Source: Flavobacteriaceae bacterium (lineage in GTDB: Bacteria; Bacteroidota; Bacteroidia; Flavobacteriales; Flavobacteriaceae). From it: a stretch of 32,000 nucleotides of DNA. The stretch covers positions 4,920,001 to 4,952,000 of the forward strand of contig OZ245049.1 in NCBI GenBank assembly GCA_965224465.1. Reading direction: 5' to 3'. A program made the translations under genes and the position numbers. Shown one piece after another: positions 1-9,568 of this stretch. Each line of letters opens with the position of its first letter. Positions within the stretch are counted from its first letter, which is position 1. A model generated the notes under the pieces. That model was not told the origin of the DNA and did no database searches. It saw only the letters and a program-made list of their open reading frames with translations.

Positions 1-661
1 GTTTTGCTTGTGGGTCGGTTGTATTTATTCCTATATTTCCGCCACTTTTTAAAAACAATCGAGAATTAAAAACACCAGATTCTTCAAAGTTTAGTCCGTT
101 GGGGAGTAGGTTCCAATCCCATTTTGCGACTCCTGAAGCGTCCTCAAATGCTAATACTTCGTTTCCGTTTGCTCTTAGTACCAAAGGATGATCTTTATAG
201 GTTGTTGCTTGGTTTATGAGTACCTGGCCTTTATTATTTACCAGTCGTAATTTTTCTACGCTATTTGATTTTAAAATAAGGTCTTGAGCATTTGTAGTCC
301 CAATATAATTAGCATTTGTCGTAGGCGTATTTCCTGTTAATTTCCATGCTTTATTATTTGAAATATCTACGTATTCTTTGGTGACAGCATCTTTAGGATT
401 TGTAGGGGTACCTAGGTTTGTTATTTTTAGAGCATTCGCATCATTTGCCTCTGCTAAAATTTCTTTTAAATTCTTATTTATAGGTTGAAAAGTACCATCA
501 GTGAGTCCAATATAAATAATATTGGTAAACTTGTGTTTGTAGAGGTCTCCTTCTCCTGCATCTTTTGCAGCTATGTTGATGTTTGTTATTTCTTTTAAAT
601 TCTGTGCAGTTGTATTTGTAATAGTAAAGAATAAAAGAATAAGGGGTATAACGTATTTCAT
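1..661 (-). CDS. Secreted fibre / tail-fibre-like surface protein, N-terminal 220 aa only (gene runs off the window start)
   Basis: Hand translation of the minus strand. ATG at 661 gives MKYVIPLILLFFTITNTTAQNLKEITNINIAAKDAGEGDLYKHKFTNIIYIGLTDGTFQPI..., and the frame stays open to base 1, ending ...LFLKSGGNIGINTTDPQAK. It is missing from the ORF track because it is truncated. It has a Sec-type signal ending in AQ. The N-terminal module parallels EINNIN..AAEGDMYQ..IWYIGLSDGSLQLI of the giant neighbour. Confidence 0.7.
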   Translation of the reverse strand, partial: MKYVIPLILLFFTITNTTAQNLKEITNINIAAKDAGEGDLYKHKFTNIIYIGLTDGTFQPINKNLKEILAEANDANALKITNLGTPTNPKDAVTKEYVDISNNKAWKLTGNTPTTNANYIGTTNAQDLILKSNSVEKLRLVNNKGQVLINQATTYKDHPLVLRANGNEVLAFEDASGVAKWDWNLLPNGLNFEESGVFNSRLFLKSGGNIGINTTDPQAK

Positions 662-719
662 GATTAAAAACTTATTAGGGATAAAATTTTTTGGGATAGT
701 TTTTTTTTGATGGTTAGAT

Positions 720-727
720 CAAATTTA
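720..727 (-). promoter_or_regulatory. Candidate Bacteroidetes -7 box (TAAATTTG, matching TAnnTTTG) for the 1..661 gene
   Basis: Plus-strand caaattta at 720-727 is TAAATTTG on the minus strand, about 58 nt upstream of the ATG at 661. It is a motif match only, and AT-rich DNA gives chance hits. Confidence 0.3.
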
Positions 728-8213: not shown

Positions 8214-8251
8214 GGTGTTATTGTTTTGTTGTTGTGGGTTACTTATTGATG

Positions 8252-9568
8252 TTATTGCTTCTCTATTAAAATAGATGTTGCGTTGGGAATTGTTTGCAGT
8301 GTAGCAGCTCCAGAAATTCTTTTTGCTTGCACTGTAATTTTATGAGTACCTGCATTTGTAATCTGAATTATTATAGTTGCTGTTGCGGTATTTCTATTAT
8401 TTAAAGCATTTCTATGGTATCCAAAAGTAGTTGAACCAGGGATTTCTGTATTGTCTTTTGCTAATCGGAATTCTGATTCCGTCCTATTATTACTATTTGT
8501 TCCGAATCCTAGACTTACACGATAGGTGATTTTATAAATCCCTGGCTGTGTTATGTTAATTGAATTGGTTGTTGCTGTAAAATTACCACTGTCTATAATT
8601 CCGTCGGTACCAAAATTAATATCAGTAAACGTATCACTTATGGTTTGTGTACCTGCAGTTAAATATATTTCTGCCAACAGTCCTATTGCTTTTGCCCATT
8701 TTACTTCGGTGCCAACAGTTGTTAAAACCTGTCCGTCTGTTCCTGGTTTTACTTCTAATTCATTGCTTGCATTAAATCCGATGCTTGTATTATCTATAGA
8801 AGCACTTACTTTAAAATCTTGAAGGGTTTGAATCACAGAAATTCCATCTCCAGCTGTTACTGTTTGGTTTTCATTCGTAGGATCATTATCAGCATCATCC
8901 ACATTATCGGTGATTGTTACTGAACTACCATTTTCTAGGCTAATTATATGTCCAGTACTGTCGATACTTAATTGTTGATTGTCTGTATTGTCTATAAAAT
9001 GTGATAAATCAACAGTACCACCATTTTCTAGACTCAATATATTGGTCAGTGAGTCAAAGCTTAGTTGTTGGTTTGTGACACTCGAAGCTAGAAACTGTAA
9101 GTCCACCGTTTTAGTATTACCATCTTCTAAGGTAATAGACAGAGTAGTTGTACTTTGATCAAATGAAAAATCTGTAATGGTTTGATCATCTGTATTATTA
9201 AGAGTAGAGAGATCCACGGTTTTGGTGGCTCCCGAGTTTAACAAAACAGTTAAAACACTTGAGTTATTATTAAAATCAATTGAAGCAATCCCATCAGAGG
9301 AGAGGCCGTTGTTACATAGCGGCGTCCAAGTGGATCCATTAAATTGATACATGCATTTTTCATCTATATTATAGACGAGAGCACCTTGCAACGGTGTAAT
9401 TGCATTCATTTGTGTAGATGTTACTCTAGTTAAAACAAACACTTTATTGGTGCTCTCTAGTTCTAGTAAAGAGCTAGGATTCAGGTTCTGTGGGGATTCT
9501 CCAATTTTTACTTGACTGTAAAATTGGAACGAAACGAGACAGAATGTTATAAGGGAAAATCTTTTCAT
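8252..9568 (-). CDS. Secreted fibre-like protein (438 aa) with the same C-terminal head domain as the giant gene
   Basis: ATG at 9568 and signal peptide MKRFSLITFCLVSFQFYSQ. The N-terminus has LLELESTNKVFVLTRVTSTQMNAITPLQGALVYN..YQFNGSTWTPL. There are four L-x-L-x-x-G..T..VDL modules and an NVDDADNDPTNENQTV linker (giant: NVDDSDANATNEIQTV). The C-terminus YKITYRVSLGFGTNSNNRTESEF...ATSILIEKQ parallels YKVTYRVTLTISDNSNNRTGSEY...GSSLLIEKI. Only 38 bp separate it from the giant gene, so they are probably an operon. Confidence 0.85.
   Translation of the reverse strand: MKRFSLITFCLVSFQFYSQVKIGESPQNLNPSSLLELESTNKVFVLTRVTSTQMNAITPLQGALVYNIDEKCMYQFNGSTWTPLCNNGLSSDGIASIDFNNNSSVLTVLLNSGATKTVDLSTLNNTDDQTITDFSFDQSTTTLSITLEDGNTKTVDLQFLASSVTNQQLSFDSLTNILSLENGGTVDLSHFIDNTDNQQLSIDSTGHIISLENGSSVTITDNVDDADNDPTNENQTVTAGDGISVIQTLQDFKVSASIDNTSIGFNASNELEVKPGTDGQVLTTVGTEVKWAKAIGLLAEIYLTAGTQTISDTFTDINFGTDGIIDSGNFTATTNSINITQPGIYKITYRVSLGFGTNSNNRTESEFRLAKDNTEIPGSTTFGYHRNALNNRNTATATIIIQITNAGTHKITVQAKRISGAATLQTIPNATSILIEKQ

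What the first reader, a model, noticed from the sequence alone, without database searches (positions are those of the whole stretch)
1..9568. Three-gene cluster of modular secreted fibre proteins: candidate uncharacterised surface-fibre system
Three consecutive minus-strand genes (<1..661, 966..8213, 8252..9568) each encode a signal-peptide protein built from shuffled modules. The truncated left gene and the giant share an N-terminal module (I-x-NIN...A-x-EGD-x-Y...I-x-YIGL-[ST]-DG-[ST]-x-Q-x-I). The giant and the right gene share a D-rich linker (NVDD-x-D-x-x-x-TNE-x-QTV) and a C-terminal roughly 110-aa head. Between the ends, each gene has a different stalk: 21 x 92-aa units, or 4 x roughly 35-aa LxLxxG..VDL modules. 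I see no recognisable T9SS C-terminal domain, sortase signal or lipobox, so secretion and anchoring are unexplained. The layout of N-terminal anchor, variable repetitive stalk and C-terminal globular head mirrors trimeric fibres such as exosporium BclA or phage tail fibres. Here, however, it sits in a chromosomal context with no phage genes in view. The right gene and the giant are 38 bp apart, with one terminator after the giant, so they are probably one operon.
Basis: partly seen in the sequence, partly recalled or inferred. Interest (0 to 1): 0.78.

Follow-up and report, generated by a model that had tools for sequence, protein, structure and literature searches.

The report
Chromosomal array of phage-like secreted fibres
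A marine Flavobacteriaceae chromosome carries an array of signal-peptide-bearing, module-shuffled proteins built from phage tail-fibre parts and tipped by C1q/BclA-like heads; they are most likely cell-surface fibres, and in relatives such arrays end with a Type IX secretion partner gene that may explain their export.

Summary
Three minus-strand genes (<1..661, 966..8213, 8252..9568) encode signal-peptide proteins that share modules as described. There are two corrections. The giant has 21 units, of which 18 are 92 aa and 3 are 62 aa. The left gene is the 5' end of a 716-aa protein.

The modules are not orphans:
- The gene-2 N-module is Pfam PF26696 (PTL_trimer).
- The shared head is a C1q/TNF jelly roll. 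Its closest solved folds are BxpB, ExsFA and BclA.
- The stalk repeats match phage tail-fibre families.

This is not a prophage. The flanks are housekeeping genes, with dnaA 13 kb away. The same site carries the same ordered array in at least five assemblies.

The array is larger than three genes, with at least 8 paralogues in relatives. Stalk length is highly variable: the giant's orthologues are 401, 656 and 681 aa, against 2415 aa here.

One new lead came from outside the window. In at least 17 related loci, a fibre gene or array is followed by a conserved ~385-aa gene, usually 2-4 nt downstream. That gene carries a T9SS type-B sorting domain. No such gene is visible in the window, because the array runs off its left edge.

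Best reading: trimeric surface fibres analogous to Bdellovibrio MAT fibres. They are a new variant of a known kind, and no experimental work on them was found.

The parts
8252..9568 (-). Gene 2 (438 aa). Its parts are a signal peptide, N-module B (PTL_trimer), 4 LxLxxG..VDL beta-meander modules, a D-rich linker, a GQVL..W neck and a C1q/BclA-like head.
   Evidence: (P0001 is 100% identical and carries PF26696)
9515..9568 (-). Gene 2 signal peptide (aa 1-18), cleaved before Q19 (FYS|QVKIG).
   Evidence: Read from the sequence. 45 of 49 family members have [AGSTC]Q directly before the module.
9314..9514 (-). N-module B (aa 19-85), which is Pfam PF26696 PTL_trimer.
   Evidence: AF2 block-mean pLDDT ~90 over aa 50-80
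8909..9289 (-). Gene 2 stalk: four 31-38-aa LxLxxG..VDL modules (aa 94-220).
   Evidence: the same repeat occurs in P0004, P0010, P0042, P0162
8858..8905 (-). D-rich linker NVDDADNDPTNENQTV (aa 222-237).
8255..8680 (-). Gene 2 C-terminal head (aa 297-438), a C1q/TNF jelly roll.
   Evidence: AF2 pLDDT 90.8; Foldseek hits BxpB, ExsFA, BclA and C1QL at E~1e-8; Pfam BclA_C 3e-5, below the gathering threshold
9723..9730 (-). Candidate Bacteroidetes-type -7 promoter box (TATTTTTG), 155 nt upstream of the gene 2 ATG.
   Evidence: a consensus match only
966..8213 (-). Giant gene (2415 aa). Its parts are a signal peptide, N-module A, 21 tandem units, a tail-fibre-like neck, a D-rich linker and a C1q/BclA-like head.
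   Evidence: P0144 has the same length
8157..8213 (-). Giant signal peptide (aa 1-19, SYG|Q).
7974..8129 (-). N-module A (aa 29-80): A-x-EGD-x-Y ... W/I-Y-I-G-L-S-D-G-x-x-Q-x-I.
2061..7586 (-). Tandem repeat array (aa 210-2051): 18 units of 92 aa and 3 units of 62 aa.
   Evidence: Cwp8_D2 in 16 stretches; tail-fibre PHROGs 892, 28766 and 21412
1845..1892 (-). D-rich linker NVDDSDANATNEIQTV (aa 2108-2123).
969..1427 (-). Giant C-terminal head (aa 2263-2415), homologous to the gene 2 head.
928..961 (-). Intrinsic-terminator-like hairpin (15 pairs plus a T run) after the giant.
1..661 (-). The 5' 220 codons of the left gene; the full product is 716 aa (P0143). Its parts are a signal peptide, N-module A (467..601), a DAVTKEYVD tail-fibre motif (365..391) and a central module (2..346). 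The remainder, including a different C-terminal head, lies left of the window.
720..727 (-). Candidate -7 promoter box (TAAATTTG), 59 nt upstream of the left gene ATG. It is consistent with a separate transcription unit.
   Evidence: a consensus match only

Best explanation
The three genes open a longer chromosomal array of fibre proteins. The array keeps its position between relatives, but its content varies.

Each protein is most likely handled as follows:
1. It is exported by Sec and cut by signal peptidase I just before a glutamine.
2. It trimerises.
3. It ends up as an extended fibre on or outside the cell envelope.

The proposed fibre has four parts:
- a small module at the mature N-terminus as the proximal end (type A in the giant and the left gene; type B, PTL_trimer, in gene 2);
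- a stalk of interchangeable phage tail-fibre-like repeats that sets the reach;
- a GQ(V/I)L..W neck;
- a distal binding head, which is a C1q/TNF/BclA-type jelly roll in gene 2 and the giant, and a different head in the left gene.

Gene 2 and the giant are co-transcribed, so the cell would get two fibres with related heads but very different lengths. The function is ligand binding or adhesion, to particles, algae, other cells or phage-like targets.

What is shown: the signal peptides, the module identities, the head fold, the phage affinity of the stalks, the non-prophage context, the conservation of the array and the variability of the stalk.

What is inferred: trimerisation, surface location, the adhesin role, and the route across the outer membrane. 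For that route I favour dependence on a T9SS type-B-CTD partner protein encoded at the end of such arrays in relatives. I hold this with lower confidence, about 0.3.
For: Signal peptides and the Q+1 pattern; 45 of 49 family members.

Head: AF2 pLDDT 90.8. Foldseek matches BxpB (8d02), ExsFA, BclA, C1QL1, 4-1BBL, and cyanophage and phi812 fibre tips at E 1e-8 to 1e-7, TM 0.65-0.77. All of these fold families are known as trimers. In BFVD the best hit is a marine phage protein at E 2e-14, 32% identity.

Stalks: tail-fibre PHROGs at E 1e-39 to 1e-66. Giant aa ~1922-2100 is 38-41% identical to tail-fibre-like proteins of T7-like cyanophages.

N-module B: it is PF26696 'PTL_trimer' and always sits directly after the signal peptide.

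Context: housekeeping genes, namely an L19 leader, TrmD, IDH, RibD and dnaA.

Conservation: the same site and the same gene order occur in at least five assemblies, L081/82, L086/87, L115/116 and L117+L083/84.

Stalk variability: the giant's orthologues are 401, 656 and 681 aa. The gene-2 orthologues are 275-560 aa.

Module shuffling: N-module A is also found with LxLxxG repeats in P0162 and P0177. The central module is found with either N-module.

Partner gene: in at least 17 loci a ~385-aa gene follows the fibre genes, usually 2-4 nt downstream. It has a signal peptide, a conserved ~270-aa domain and CHU_C/TIGR04131. One such locus is the end of the COB98 array, which is orthologous to this one.

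Analogy: Bdellovibrio MAT fibres have the same design and were shown to be on the cell surface (PMC10769870).
Against: - There is no direct evidence of expression, trimerisation or localisation.
- None of the three proteins has a recognised outer-membrane translocation or anchoring signal.
- The T9SS partner gene is not present in the 32-kb window. It is only inferred to lie further left.
- Some related loci show no partner within the DNA available (L090, L110/111).
- The AF2 models are monomers. The stalks and linker are of low to moderate confidence.
- The exact number of near-identical repeats could be an assembly estimate.
Confidence: 0.6

Rival explanations
1. The genes are tail fibres of a prophage, tailocin or extracellular contractile injection system (eCIS). 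They would be assembled in the cytoplasm onto a baseplate encoded left of the window.
For: The stalk repeats, the neck and the head all have their closest relatives in phage tail fibres. eCIS fibres with C1q domains exist in Flavobacteriaceae, for example Aquimarina (PMC12923769). The giant has a Pfam match to Phage_phiJL001_Gp84_N.
Against: - All three proteins, and nearly all family members, have cleavable Sec signal peptides. That is incompatible with cytoplasmic assembly.
- Neither the window nor the 10-kb flanks of syntenic relatives hold any phage or eCIS gene.
- The arrays consist only of fibre paralogues plus a T9SS-CTD gene.
- Scans of IMG/VR with the head profile and with N-module B found no relative.
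- tblastn of gene 2 against 50,697 phage records found nothing significant.
Confidence: 0.05
2. The proteins are Sec-exported but stay in the periplasm, on the inner face of the outer membrane, or in vesicles. They would act as structural or decoy proteins, for instance soaking up phage or binding periplasmic glycans, and not as surface fibres.
For: The three proteins have no outer-membrane translocation or anchoring signal. Bdellovibrio MAT fibres are partly packaged into a vesicle (PMC10769870).
Against: - A fibre with a 2415-aa stalk and a distal receptor-binding head makes little sense inside a periplasm.
- The head family is otherwise found at the exposed tips of exosporium naps and phage fibres.
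- The tight genetic coupling to a T9SS substrate gene in relatives points outward.
Confidence: 0.12
3. The downstream partner with a CHU_C domain is not an export carrier or anchor. It would be either a Tfa-like assembly chaperone for the fibre or an unrelated co-regulated adhesin. The fibres would then cross the outer membrane by another, unknown route.
For: In phages the gene right after a tail-fibre gene is typically its assembly chaperone (general knowledge). Partner sequence similarity tracks the type of upstream fibre: 57-80% identity (94% in one near-identical pair) among partners of fibres with the central module and a BclA-like head, against 35-47% otherwise. Arrays with two N-module types can end with a single partner.
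Against: The partner itself carries a signal peptide and a bona fide type-B T9SS sorting domain: 13 of 13 aligned partners hit CHU_C, and the profile matches the C-terminal end (residues 5819-5895 of 5898) of Aureispira GhpA at 1e-9. It is therefore destined for the surface and not for a folding compartment only. Its N-domain has no detectable similarity to known Tfa proteins.
Confidence: 0.2
4. The giant gene's 21-unit array is partly an assembly artefact, that is, a wrong copy number of near-identical 276-bp repeats.
For: The units are on average 97% identical over 5.5 kb. Short-read assemblies of relatives break exactly inside the orthologous gene (L081, L116 and L117).
Against: The reading frame is intact over 7.2 kb. 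There are ordered unit variants and three precise 30-aa deletions. An identical gene-2 product is on record from a 5.24-Mb contig, and a 2415-aa protein with the same N-module is in the protein collection. Copy number does not affect the interpretation.
Confidence: 0.15

Closest known systems
Bdellovibrio bacteriovorus MAT (mosaic adhesive trimer) fibres (Caulton et al. 2024, PMC10769870)
   Same: Both are multi-paralogue families encoded by the cell, not by a phage. Both have a signal peptide, then a conserved N-terminal domain directly after it, then a phage tail-fibre-like trimeric stalk, then swappable C-terminal tip domains. Both have S74 and non-S74 subclasses: PF13884 occurs in relatives P0026, P0042 and P0115. 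In both, the anchoring and secretion mechanism is unknown.
   Different: The phyla differ (Bacteroidota against Bdellovibrionota). The N-modules here are 45-70 aa, of two unrelated types, against ~130 aa in MAT proteins; homology to the MAT N-domain was not tested. The genes here are arranged in tandem arrays at a fixed chromosomal site. In relatives they are linked to a T9SS type-B-CTD gene. The heads include C1q/BclA-type jelly rolls.
Bacillus exosporium BclA, and BxpB/ExsFA (PF18573 BclA_C; C1q/TNF fold)
   Same: The head fold matches: Foldseek hits BxpB 8d02, ExsFA 7r1m and BclA 3twi/2r6q at E~1e-8. The overall logic is also the same: an N-terminal attachment end, a repetitive stalk of variable length, and a trimeric globular head.
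   Different: Sequence identity is only 16-19%, and gene 2 scores below Pfam's gathering threshold. The window proteins have no collagen GXX stalk. The organism is Gram-negative and does not form spores. Export is by a Sec signal peptide, not by exosporium targeting.
Phage tail fibres with C1q-like tips (T7-like cyanophage fibre-like proteins; cyanophage A-1(L) and A4 fibres; marine phage A0A8D9CF08)
   Same: The repeat units, the neck motifs and the head are the same kinds of parts.
   Different: The window proteins have signal peptides, and there is no virion or baseplate gene nearby. The site is chromosomal and conserved across taxa. IMG/VR holds no close relative of this head subfamily or of N-module B.
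eCIS tail fibres with a C1q receptor-binding domain (catalogue in PMC12923769)
   Same: Both occur in Flavobacteriaceae and are modular fibres with C1q-type tips.
   Different: eCIS fibres carry eBAP baseplate-attachment N-domains and sit in eCIS operons. Here there are Sec signal peptides, different N-modules and no eCIS genes.
T9SS type-B-CTD surface proteins, such as SprB, Aureispira GhpA and the PorP-anchored cargo of PMC9143113
   Same: The phylum is the same. In relatives the partner gene carries the same CTD. The proteins are large, repetitive and surface-related.
   Different: The fibre proteins themselves lack any CTD. A CTD-less fibre that depends on a CTD-bearing partner has not, to my knowledge, been described; the literature searches found nothing.

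Membership tests
Pfam PF26696 PTL_trimer | A match to the family HMM, located directly after the signal peptide. | tested here: met
   Gene 2 only. The identical protein P0001 and its orthologue carry precomputed PF26696. A jackhmmer profile places the module at aa 19-89. The model is absent from the local Pfam copy, so it was not rescored here.
Pfam PF26696 PTL_trimer | The same module in the giant and the left gene. | tested here: not met
   N-module A does not match the N-module B profile. It is absent from the jackhmmer hits, and hhalign gives probability 0.2.
BclA_C / C1q-TNF head (PF18573) | A Pfam HMM score above the gathering threshold. | tested here: not met
   Gene 2 scores 24.3 bits against a cut-off of 38, E 3e-5; the giant has no hit. 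Relatives P0003, P0007 and P0131-P0140 do carry precomputed PF18573.
BclA_C / C1q-TNF head (PF18573) | A C1q/TNF-type all-beta jelly-roll fold. | tested here: met
   AF2 pLDDT 90.8, pTM 0.82. Foldseek gives E 1e-8, TM 0.65-0.77 to BxpB, ExsFA, BclA, C1QL and TNF ligands.
BclA_C / C1q-TNF head (PF18573) | A homotrimeric assembly. | not testable with these tools
   Only monomer prediction was available. The trimer is inferred from the fold family.
BclA-type exosporium glycoprotein | A collagen-like GXX stalk and an N-terminal exosporium-targeting motif. | tested here: not met
   The three window proteins have no collagen repeats. Some relatives do (P0032, P0109 and L088/L089).
T9SS cargo (type A CTD TIGR04183/PF18962; type B CTD TIGR04131/PF13585) | A C-terminal sorting domain. 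| tested here: not met
   No hit at E<=1 in Pfam or NCBIfam for any of the three, nor for the full-length left protein P0143 at E<=0.01. A local CTD HMM finds nothing in the window.
Phage, tailocin or eCIS tail fibre | Sequence similarity to virion tail-fibre families. | tested here: met
   PHROGs 892, 28766 and 21412 at 1e-39 to 1e-61 for the giant; weak hits (1e-6) for the left gene; tblastn to cyanophage fibre-like genes.
Phage, tailocin or eCIS tail fibre | Encoded among virion, baseplate or sheath genes, and assembled in the cytoplasm without a signal peptide. | tested here: not met
   Housekeeping flanks. Syntenic relatives show only fibre paralogues. Signal peptides are present.
Bdellovibrio MAT superfamily | A signal peptide, a conserved N-domain, a phage-like trimeric stalk and variable tips, in a multi-paralogue family. 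| tested here: met
   The architecture and the paralogue arrays match. This is a match of design, taken from PMC10769870.
Bdellovibrio MAT superfamily | Homology of the ~130-aa N-terminal domain. | not tested
The N-modules here are much shorter.
Trimeric autotransporter adhesins (YadA-like) | A C-terminal beta-barrel translocator anchor. | tested here: not met
   The C-terminus is the jelly-roll head. The window proteins have no YadA anchor or head hits.

The most novel reading that the evidence does not exclude
These fibres and the conserved ~385-aa CHU_C partner form a previously undescribed two-component surface-fibre system. In this reading, Sec-exported trimeric fibres of phage origin have no sorting domain of their own. 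A dedicated T9SS type-B-CTD partner carries them through the Type IX secretion system, tethers them at the surface, or both. Tandem arrays of fibres with different lengths and heads would share this one export and anchor module.
Probability: 0.3. Interest if true: 0.8.

Novelty: new variant of a known kind. Interest (0 to 1): 0.55.

Why it matters
Marine Flavobacteriaceae are major colonisers of particles and algae, and what they use to hold on is poorly known beyond SprB-type gliding adhesins. This locus shows that they keep, at a fixed chromosomal site near the origin, a rapidly diversifying set of phage-derived fibres. The stalks range from a few hundred to 2415 residues, and the receptor-binding heads can be exchanged.

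If the fibres are displayed, they are candidate determinants of attachment specificity. They could also act as phage-like recognition devices used by the cell.

The link to a partner with a T9SS sorting domain gives a directly testable answer to how proteins without a CTD could use, or be tethered by, Type IX secretion. It would also extend the idea of 'chimeric fibres in cells', so far shown in Bdellovibrio, to a second phylum.

Tried and rejected
- Exact look-ups of the window proteins in the contig index found nothing, so the DNA left of the window could not be fetched.
- A genome-contig scan with the left gene found no relative.
- The second and last genome scan used IDH as an anchor. The best syntenic one, Lutibacter litoralis L009, lacks the array. 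This shows only that the array is not universal.
- Sequence searches of the PDB with the giant's ends, gene 2, the left protein, the N-module B profile and the partner profile gave nothing useful, apart from the match of the partner's C-terminal domain to the C-terminal end of GhpA.
- N-module A and N-module B are not detectably related by hhalign.
- Foldseek with the full gene-2 model only re-found the head.
- Scans of IMG/VR with the head profile and with N-module B found nothing. The N-module B alignment was too diverse to scan.
- No shufflon-like inverted repeats were found around the genes.
- Literature searches for PF26696/PTL_trimer, for tail-fibre-like proteins plus T9SS, and for C1q/BclA in Bacteroidetes found no paper on this family. 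What 'PTL' stands for is not established.
- Rejected as explanations: prophage remnant, eCIS fibre, trimeric autotransporter, and direct T9SS cargo of the SprB type. The reasons are in the membership table.
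Full report

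Yes. The ORF list shows 966..8213(-) (2415 aa) and 8252..9568(-) (438 aa). A reading frame open at the left edge starts at 661(-). All three products begin with a short basic stretch and a hydrophobic core. They end in SYG|Q, FYS|Q and TTA|Q.

Tandem Repeats Finder reports 276-bp units with 97-99% matches, plus 186-bp variants. Counting the motif KTKINPDVAGTGLKQN gives 21 units. Eighteen are 92 aa. Three (units 1, 7 and 11) are 62 aa and lack exactly 30 residues. There are 10 distinct protein variants, and mean nucleotide identity among the long units is 97.2%. The repeats make up 76% of the protein.

The giant and gene 2 align at E 3e-26. The alignment covers the D-rich linker (NVDD-x-D-x-x-x-TNE-x-QTV) and a C-terminal region that is about 45% identical. 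The giant and the left gene share a ~50-aa N-terminal module: 41% identity, E 2e-5 in a pairwise test. A family HMM built later hits both at 6e-20 and 3e-22.

Gene 2 has four LxLxxG..VDL modules at aa 94-220. Gene 2 and the giant are 38 nt apart, and one strong hairpin with a T run lies at 961..928(-), after the giant. Matches to the Bacteroidetes -7 box TAnnTTTG lie on the minus strand at 9723-9730 and 720-727. That is upstream of gene 2 and of the left gene, and there is none in the 38-nt gap. This fits an operon of gene 2 plus the giant and a separate unit for the left gene, but these are consensus matches only.

**2. What are the modules?**

*Head.* An AlphaFold2 model of the gene-2 head, built on a 17-sequence alignment, is confident (pLDDT 90.8, pTM 0.82, all beta). 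Foldseek against the PDB returns these at E 1e-8 to 1e-7 and TM 0.65-0.77:
- Bacillus BxpB (8d02), ExsFA (7r1m, 7r5i, 9h3d) and BclA (3twi, 2r6q);
- C1q-like proteins and TNF-family ligands;
- the fibre tips of cyanophages A4 and A-1(L), and the phi812 spike knob.

Against predicted viral structures, the best hit is an uncultured marine phage protein (E 2e-14, 32% identity, rmsd 1.8 A). It is followed by many C1q, collagen and tail-fibre proteins of phages and giant viruses. Pfam BclA_C matches gene 2 only below threshold (24 bits against 38). Several relatives carry it in precomputed annotation. So the head is a C1q/TNF jelly roll of the BclA_C kind, and this fold family is known as a trimer.

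*Stalk of the giant.* The 92-aa unit matches Pfam Cwp8_D2 in 16 stretches (1e-20) and several tail-fibre PHROGs (1e-39 to 1e-66). The region that begins in the last repeat unit and runs past it is 38-41% identical to tail-fibre-like proteins of T7-like cyanophages. It also passes the Pfam threshold for Phage_phiJL001_Gp84_N.

*N-module of gene 2 (type B).* Precomputed annotation of the identical protein P0001, and of its orthologue, names it PF26696 'PTL_trimer'. This family is newer than the local Pfam copy. A jackhmmer profile finds it in about 75 of 140 collected relatives, almost always at positions 19-90. In 45 of 49 complete proteins, [AGSTC]Q directly precedes the module. The module is therefore the mature N-terminus after signal-peptidase-I cleavage before glutamine. 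From my own knowledge, this is the Bacteroidetes 'Q-rule' pattern (Bochtler et al. 2018). In the full-length AF2 model the module is a small alpha/beta unit with block-mean pLDDT about 90 over aa 50-80. The LxLxxG repeats form three-stranded meanders with block-mean pLDDT about 60-87, and the D-rich linker is disordered.

*N-module of the giant and the left gene (type A).* This is A-x-EGD-x-Y ... IYIGL-x-x-G-x-x-Q-x-I. It is not detectably related to type B and has no Pfam family. A three-sequence profile found only 41 hits at E<=1e-3 among 1.84 billion cluster representatives. I judged about 28 of them genuine, because they have a signal peptide with the motif at ~20-65. Type A is therefore a rare, unclassified module.

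*Left gene.* One of those hits, P0143 (716 aa), is identical to the left fragment over all 220 residues. It is the full left-gene product. Its parts, in order, are:
1. N-module A;
2. a DAVTKEYVD motif that gives weak tail-fibre PHROG hits;
3. a central module conserved in ~375-aa relatives;
4. GQILSST-x-TGT-x-W repeats;
5. a different C-terminal head, ending ...GGWSFDVCATPTGI, with no family match.

**3. Context, conservation and variability**

*Context.* The rest of the window is housekeeping: DUF6095, MscS, monomeric IDH, L19 with its Flavobacteria leader, TrmD, PrmC, RibD, asparaginase, dnaA at 22472..23899, a LytTR two-component pair, GH92 and a solute symporter. There are no tRNAs and no phage genes.

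*Source genome.* It is not in the contig index and was not found among the species representatives. Contigs that encode homologues gave the comparison instead.

*The same site carries the array in relatives.* Four further sets of assemblies carry the block ...TrmD-L19-IDH-MscS-DUF6095-ORF~350, followed by three things in order:
1. a small fibre with N-module B and the BclA-like head (275-560 aa);
2. 38-50 nt later, a fibre with N-module A and the same head type;
3. a run of further N-module-A genes.

The assemblies are L081/L082, L086/L087, L115/L116 (MAG COB81) and L117 plus L083/L084 (MAG COB98). L081 is 71-83% identical to the window in nucleotides over its long aligned segments, so it is a related species.

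*Size of the array.* In L086 the array has at least 8 consecutive same-strand paralogues. The closest relatives of the left gene, at 61-64% identity over all 220 aa, sit inside such arrays (L084_5344, L091 and L092).

*Limits of conservation.* Lutibacter litoralis has the flanking genes but no array.

*Stalk variability.* The giant's positional orthologues are 656 and 681 aa, and a related protein is 401 aa. They use unrelated T-rich hairpin stalks. The gene-2 orthologue in L081 has a 122-aa insert of a different stalk type.

*Shuffling.* Elsewhere N-module A is joined to LxLxxG repeats (P0162, P0177), and the central module occurs with either N-module.

Module shuffling is thus a property of the whole family, and the site is conserved while the stalks turn over fast.

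**4. A partner gene outside the window**

I searched the ORFs of 34 related loci with local HMMs. In at least 17 of them, a fibre gene or the last gene of a fibre array is followed by a ~385-aa gene. The gap is usually 2-4 nt. This gene encodes:
- a signal peptide;
- a well-conserved ~270-aa domain with no Pfam, PHROG or PDB match;
- a T9SS type-B sorting domain. CHU_C is found in 13 of 13 aligned members, at best 1e-27. TIGR04131 also matches. The profile matches the C-terminal end (residues 5819-5895 of 5898) of Aureispira GhpA at 1e-9.

The gene follows both kinds of array: N-module-B arrays (L085, L088, L094, L104, L105 and others) and N-module-A arrays (L092). It also closes the COB98 array that is orthologous to the window's (L083 10312+, HMM 8e-17).

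Partner similarity tracks the type of upstream fibre. Identity is 57-80% (94% in one near-identical pair) among partners of one fibre type, and 35-47% otherwise.

The window contains no such gene. However, its array runs off the left edge, so whether the source genome has one is an inference. Some related loci show no partner within the available DNA (L090, L110/111).

**5. How it most likely works**

*Shown:* Sec-type signal peptides; the module identities; the head fold; the phage affinity of the stalk parts; a non-prophage, conserved chromosomal site; paralogue arrays; stalk-length variation; and the genetic link to a T9SS-CTD gene in relatives.

*Inferred:* the proteins trimerise, as the C1q/TNF head and tail-fibre-type stalks suggest, and are displayed as fibres. 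The N-module would be the cell-proximal end and the head the distal binding tip. Gene 2 and the giant would provide a short and a very long fibre with related heads.

*The outer-membrane step:* I favour dependence on the T9SS partner, as a carrier, a surface tether or both, with probability about 0.3. Type-B CTD proteins are known to be held at the surface by PorP-like proteins (title of PMC9143113). A Tfa-like chaperone role for the partner is the main alternative.

*The prophage, tailocin or eCIS reading:* this is unlikely, for three reasons:
- the signal peptides are conserved across the family;
- no virion genes flank the array in any of the assemblies;
- IMG/VR and GenBank phages hold no close relatives of gene 2, its head subfamily or N-module B.

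**6. Comparison with what is known**

The nearest described system in design is the MAT fibre family of Bdellovibrio (PMC10769870). It has a signal peptide, a conserved N-domain, phage-like trimeric stalks, swappable tips, and S74 and non-S74 subclasses. The fibres were shown to be on the cell surface, and their anchoring is unknown.

The present family differs in four ways: the phylum, the N-modules, the tandem arrays at a fixed site, and the link to T9SS.

Membership in the BclA glycoprotein family fails, because there is no collagen stalk, no exosporium and a sub-threshold HMM score. The proteins are not T9SS cargo themselves and are not trimeric autotransporters.

The library searches found no paper on this Bacteroidota family, although Pfam has already defined PTL_trimer.

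**7. Verdict**

The finding is real and largely well read. It is a new variant of a known kind: cell-encoded chimeric fibres derived from phage tail fibres. It is not a categorically new system. No experimental work on the family was found. Its unclassified N-module A is rare. The conserved T9SS partner gives an unexplained but testable lead on export.

Interest is 0.55. It would be about 0.8 if the two-component T9SS fibre model holds.

Noticed in passing
window 2053..7701 (+): A 1882-aa ORF runs antisense through the giant's repeat array. It is almost certainly an artefact of stop-free repeats. Each unit also carries a TAGTTTTG match (a Bacteroidetes -7 box) on the plus strand, about 21 copies within the array.
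   Followed up: partly
window 22472..23899 (+): dnaA lies about 13 kb from the fibre genes, so the array sits close to the presumed chromosomal origin region. Cumulative GC skew shows no clear sign change that would mark an origin within the window.
   Followed up: no
window 9784..10821 (-): A 345-aa ORF directly upstream of gene 2 has no Pfam match. It is conserved in position in all syntenic relatives and in Lutibacter litoralis (52% identity). Its function is unknown, and it is present even where the array is absent.
   Followed up: partly
window 15403..15430 (-): An Rfam L19-Flavobacteria ribosomal leader (RF03130, 44.8 bits) lies upstream of rplS. It confirms a Flavobacteriia-type chromosome.
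   Followed up: no
L088:4464-5606, L088:11133-12293, L094:5879-7036, L092:6053-7228, L083:10312-10555 and others: This is the conserved ~385-aa family that follows the fibre genes, made of a signal peptide, an unknown ~270-aa domain with many invariant residues, and a CHU_C type-B T9SS CTD. Its N-domain matches nothing in Pfam, PHROGs or the PDB.
   Followed up: partly
L086:13093-18410, L084:1266-2591, and P0143 C-terminus: A second, unclassified C-terminal head type ends in G-W-[ST]-F-[DE]-[IV]-x-x-T-P. It is shared by the left gene's full-length product and several array paralogues, and has no Pfam or PDB sequence match.
   Followed up: partly
giant aa 210-2051 (window 2061..7586): The three short units lack exactly VITTAELANDAVETANIKDANVTTVKIADD. 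That is three ~10-aa sub-repeats, so the stalk changes length both by sub-repeat blocks and by whole units. The last five units share a T-for-A variant (PTTLT), which suggests recent local duplication.
   Followed up: partly
P0139, P0141 (about 190 aa): Some relatives consist of only a signal peptide and the BclA-like head, with almost no stalk. The head can evidently be exported on its own.
   Followed up: no
window 25287..26788 (-) and 27193..31349 (+): A LytTR response regulator and a histidine kinase lie next to a GH92 alpha-mannosidase-family gene and a sodium:solute symporter. No link to the fibre genes is evident.
   Followed up: no
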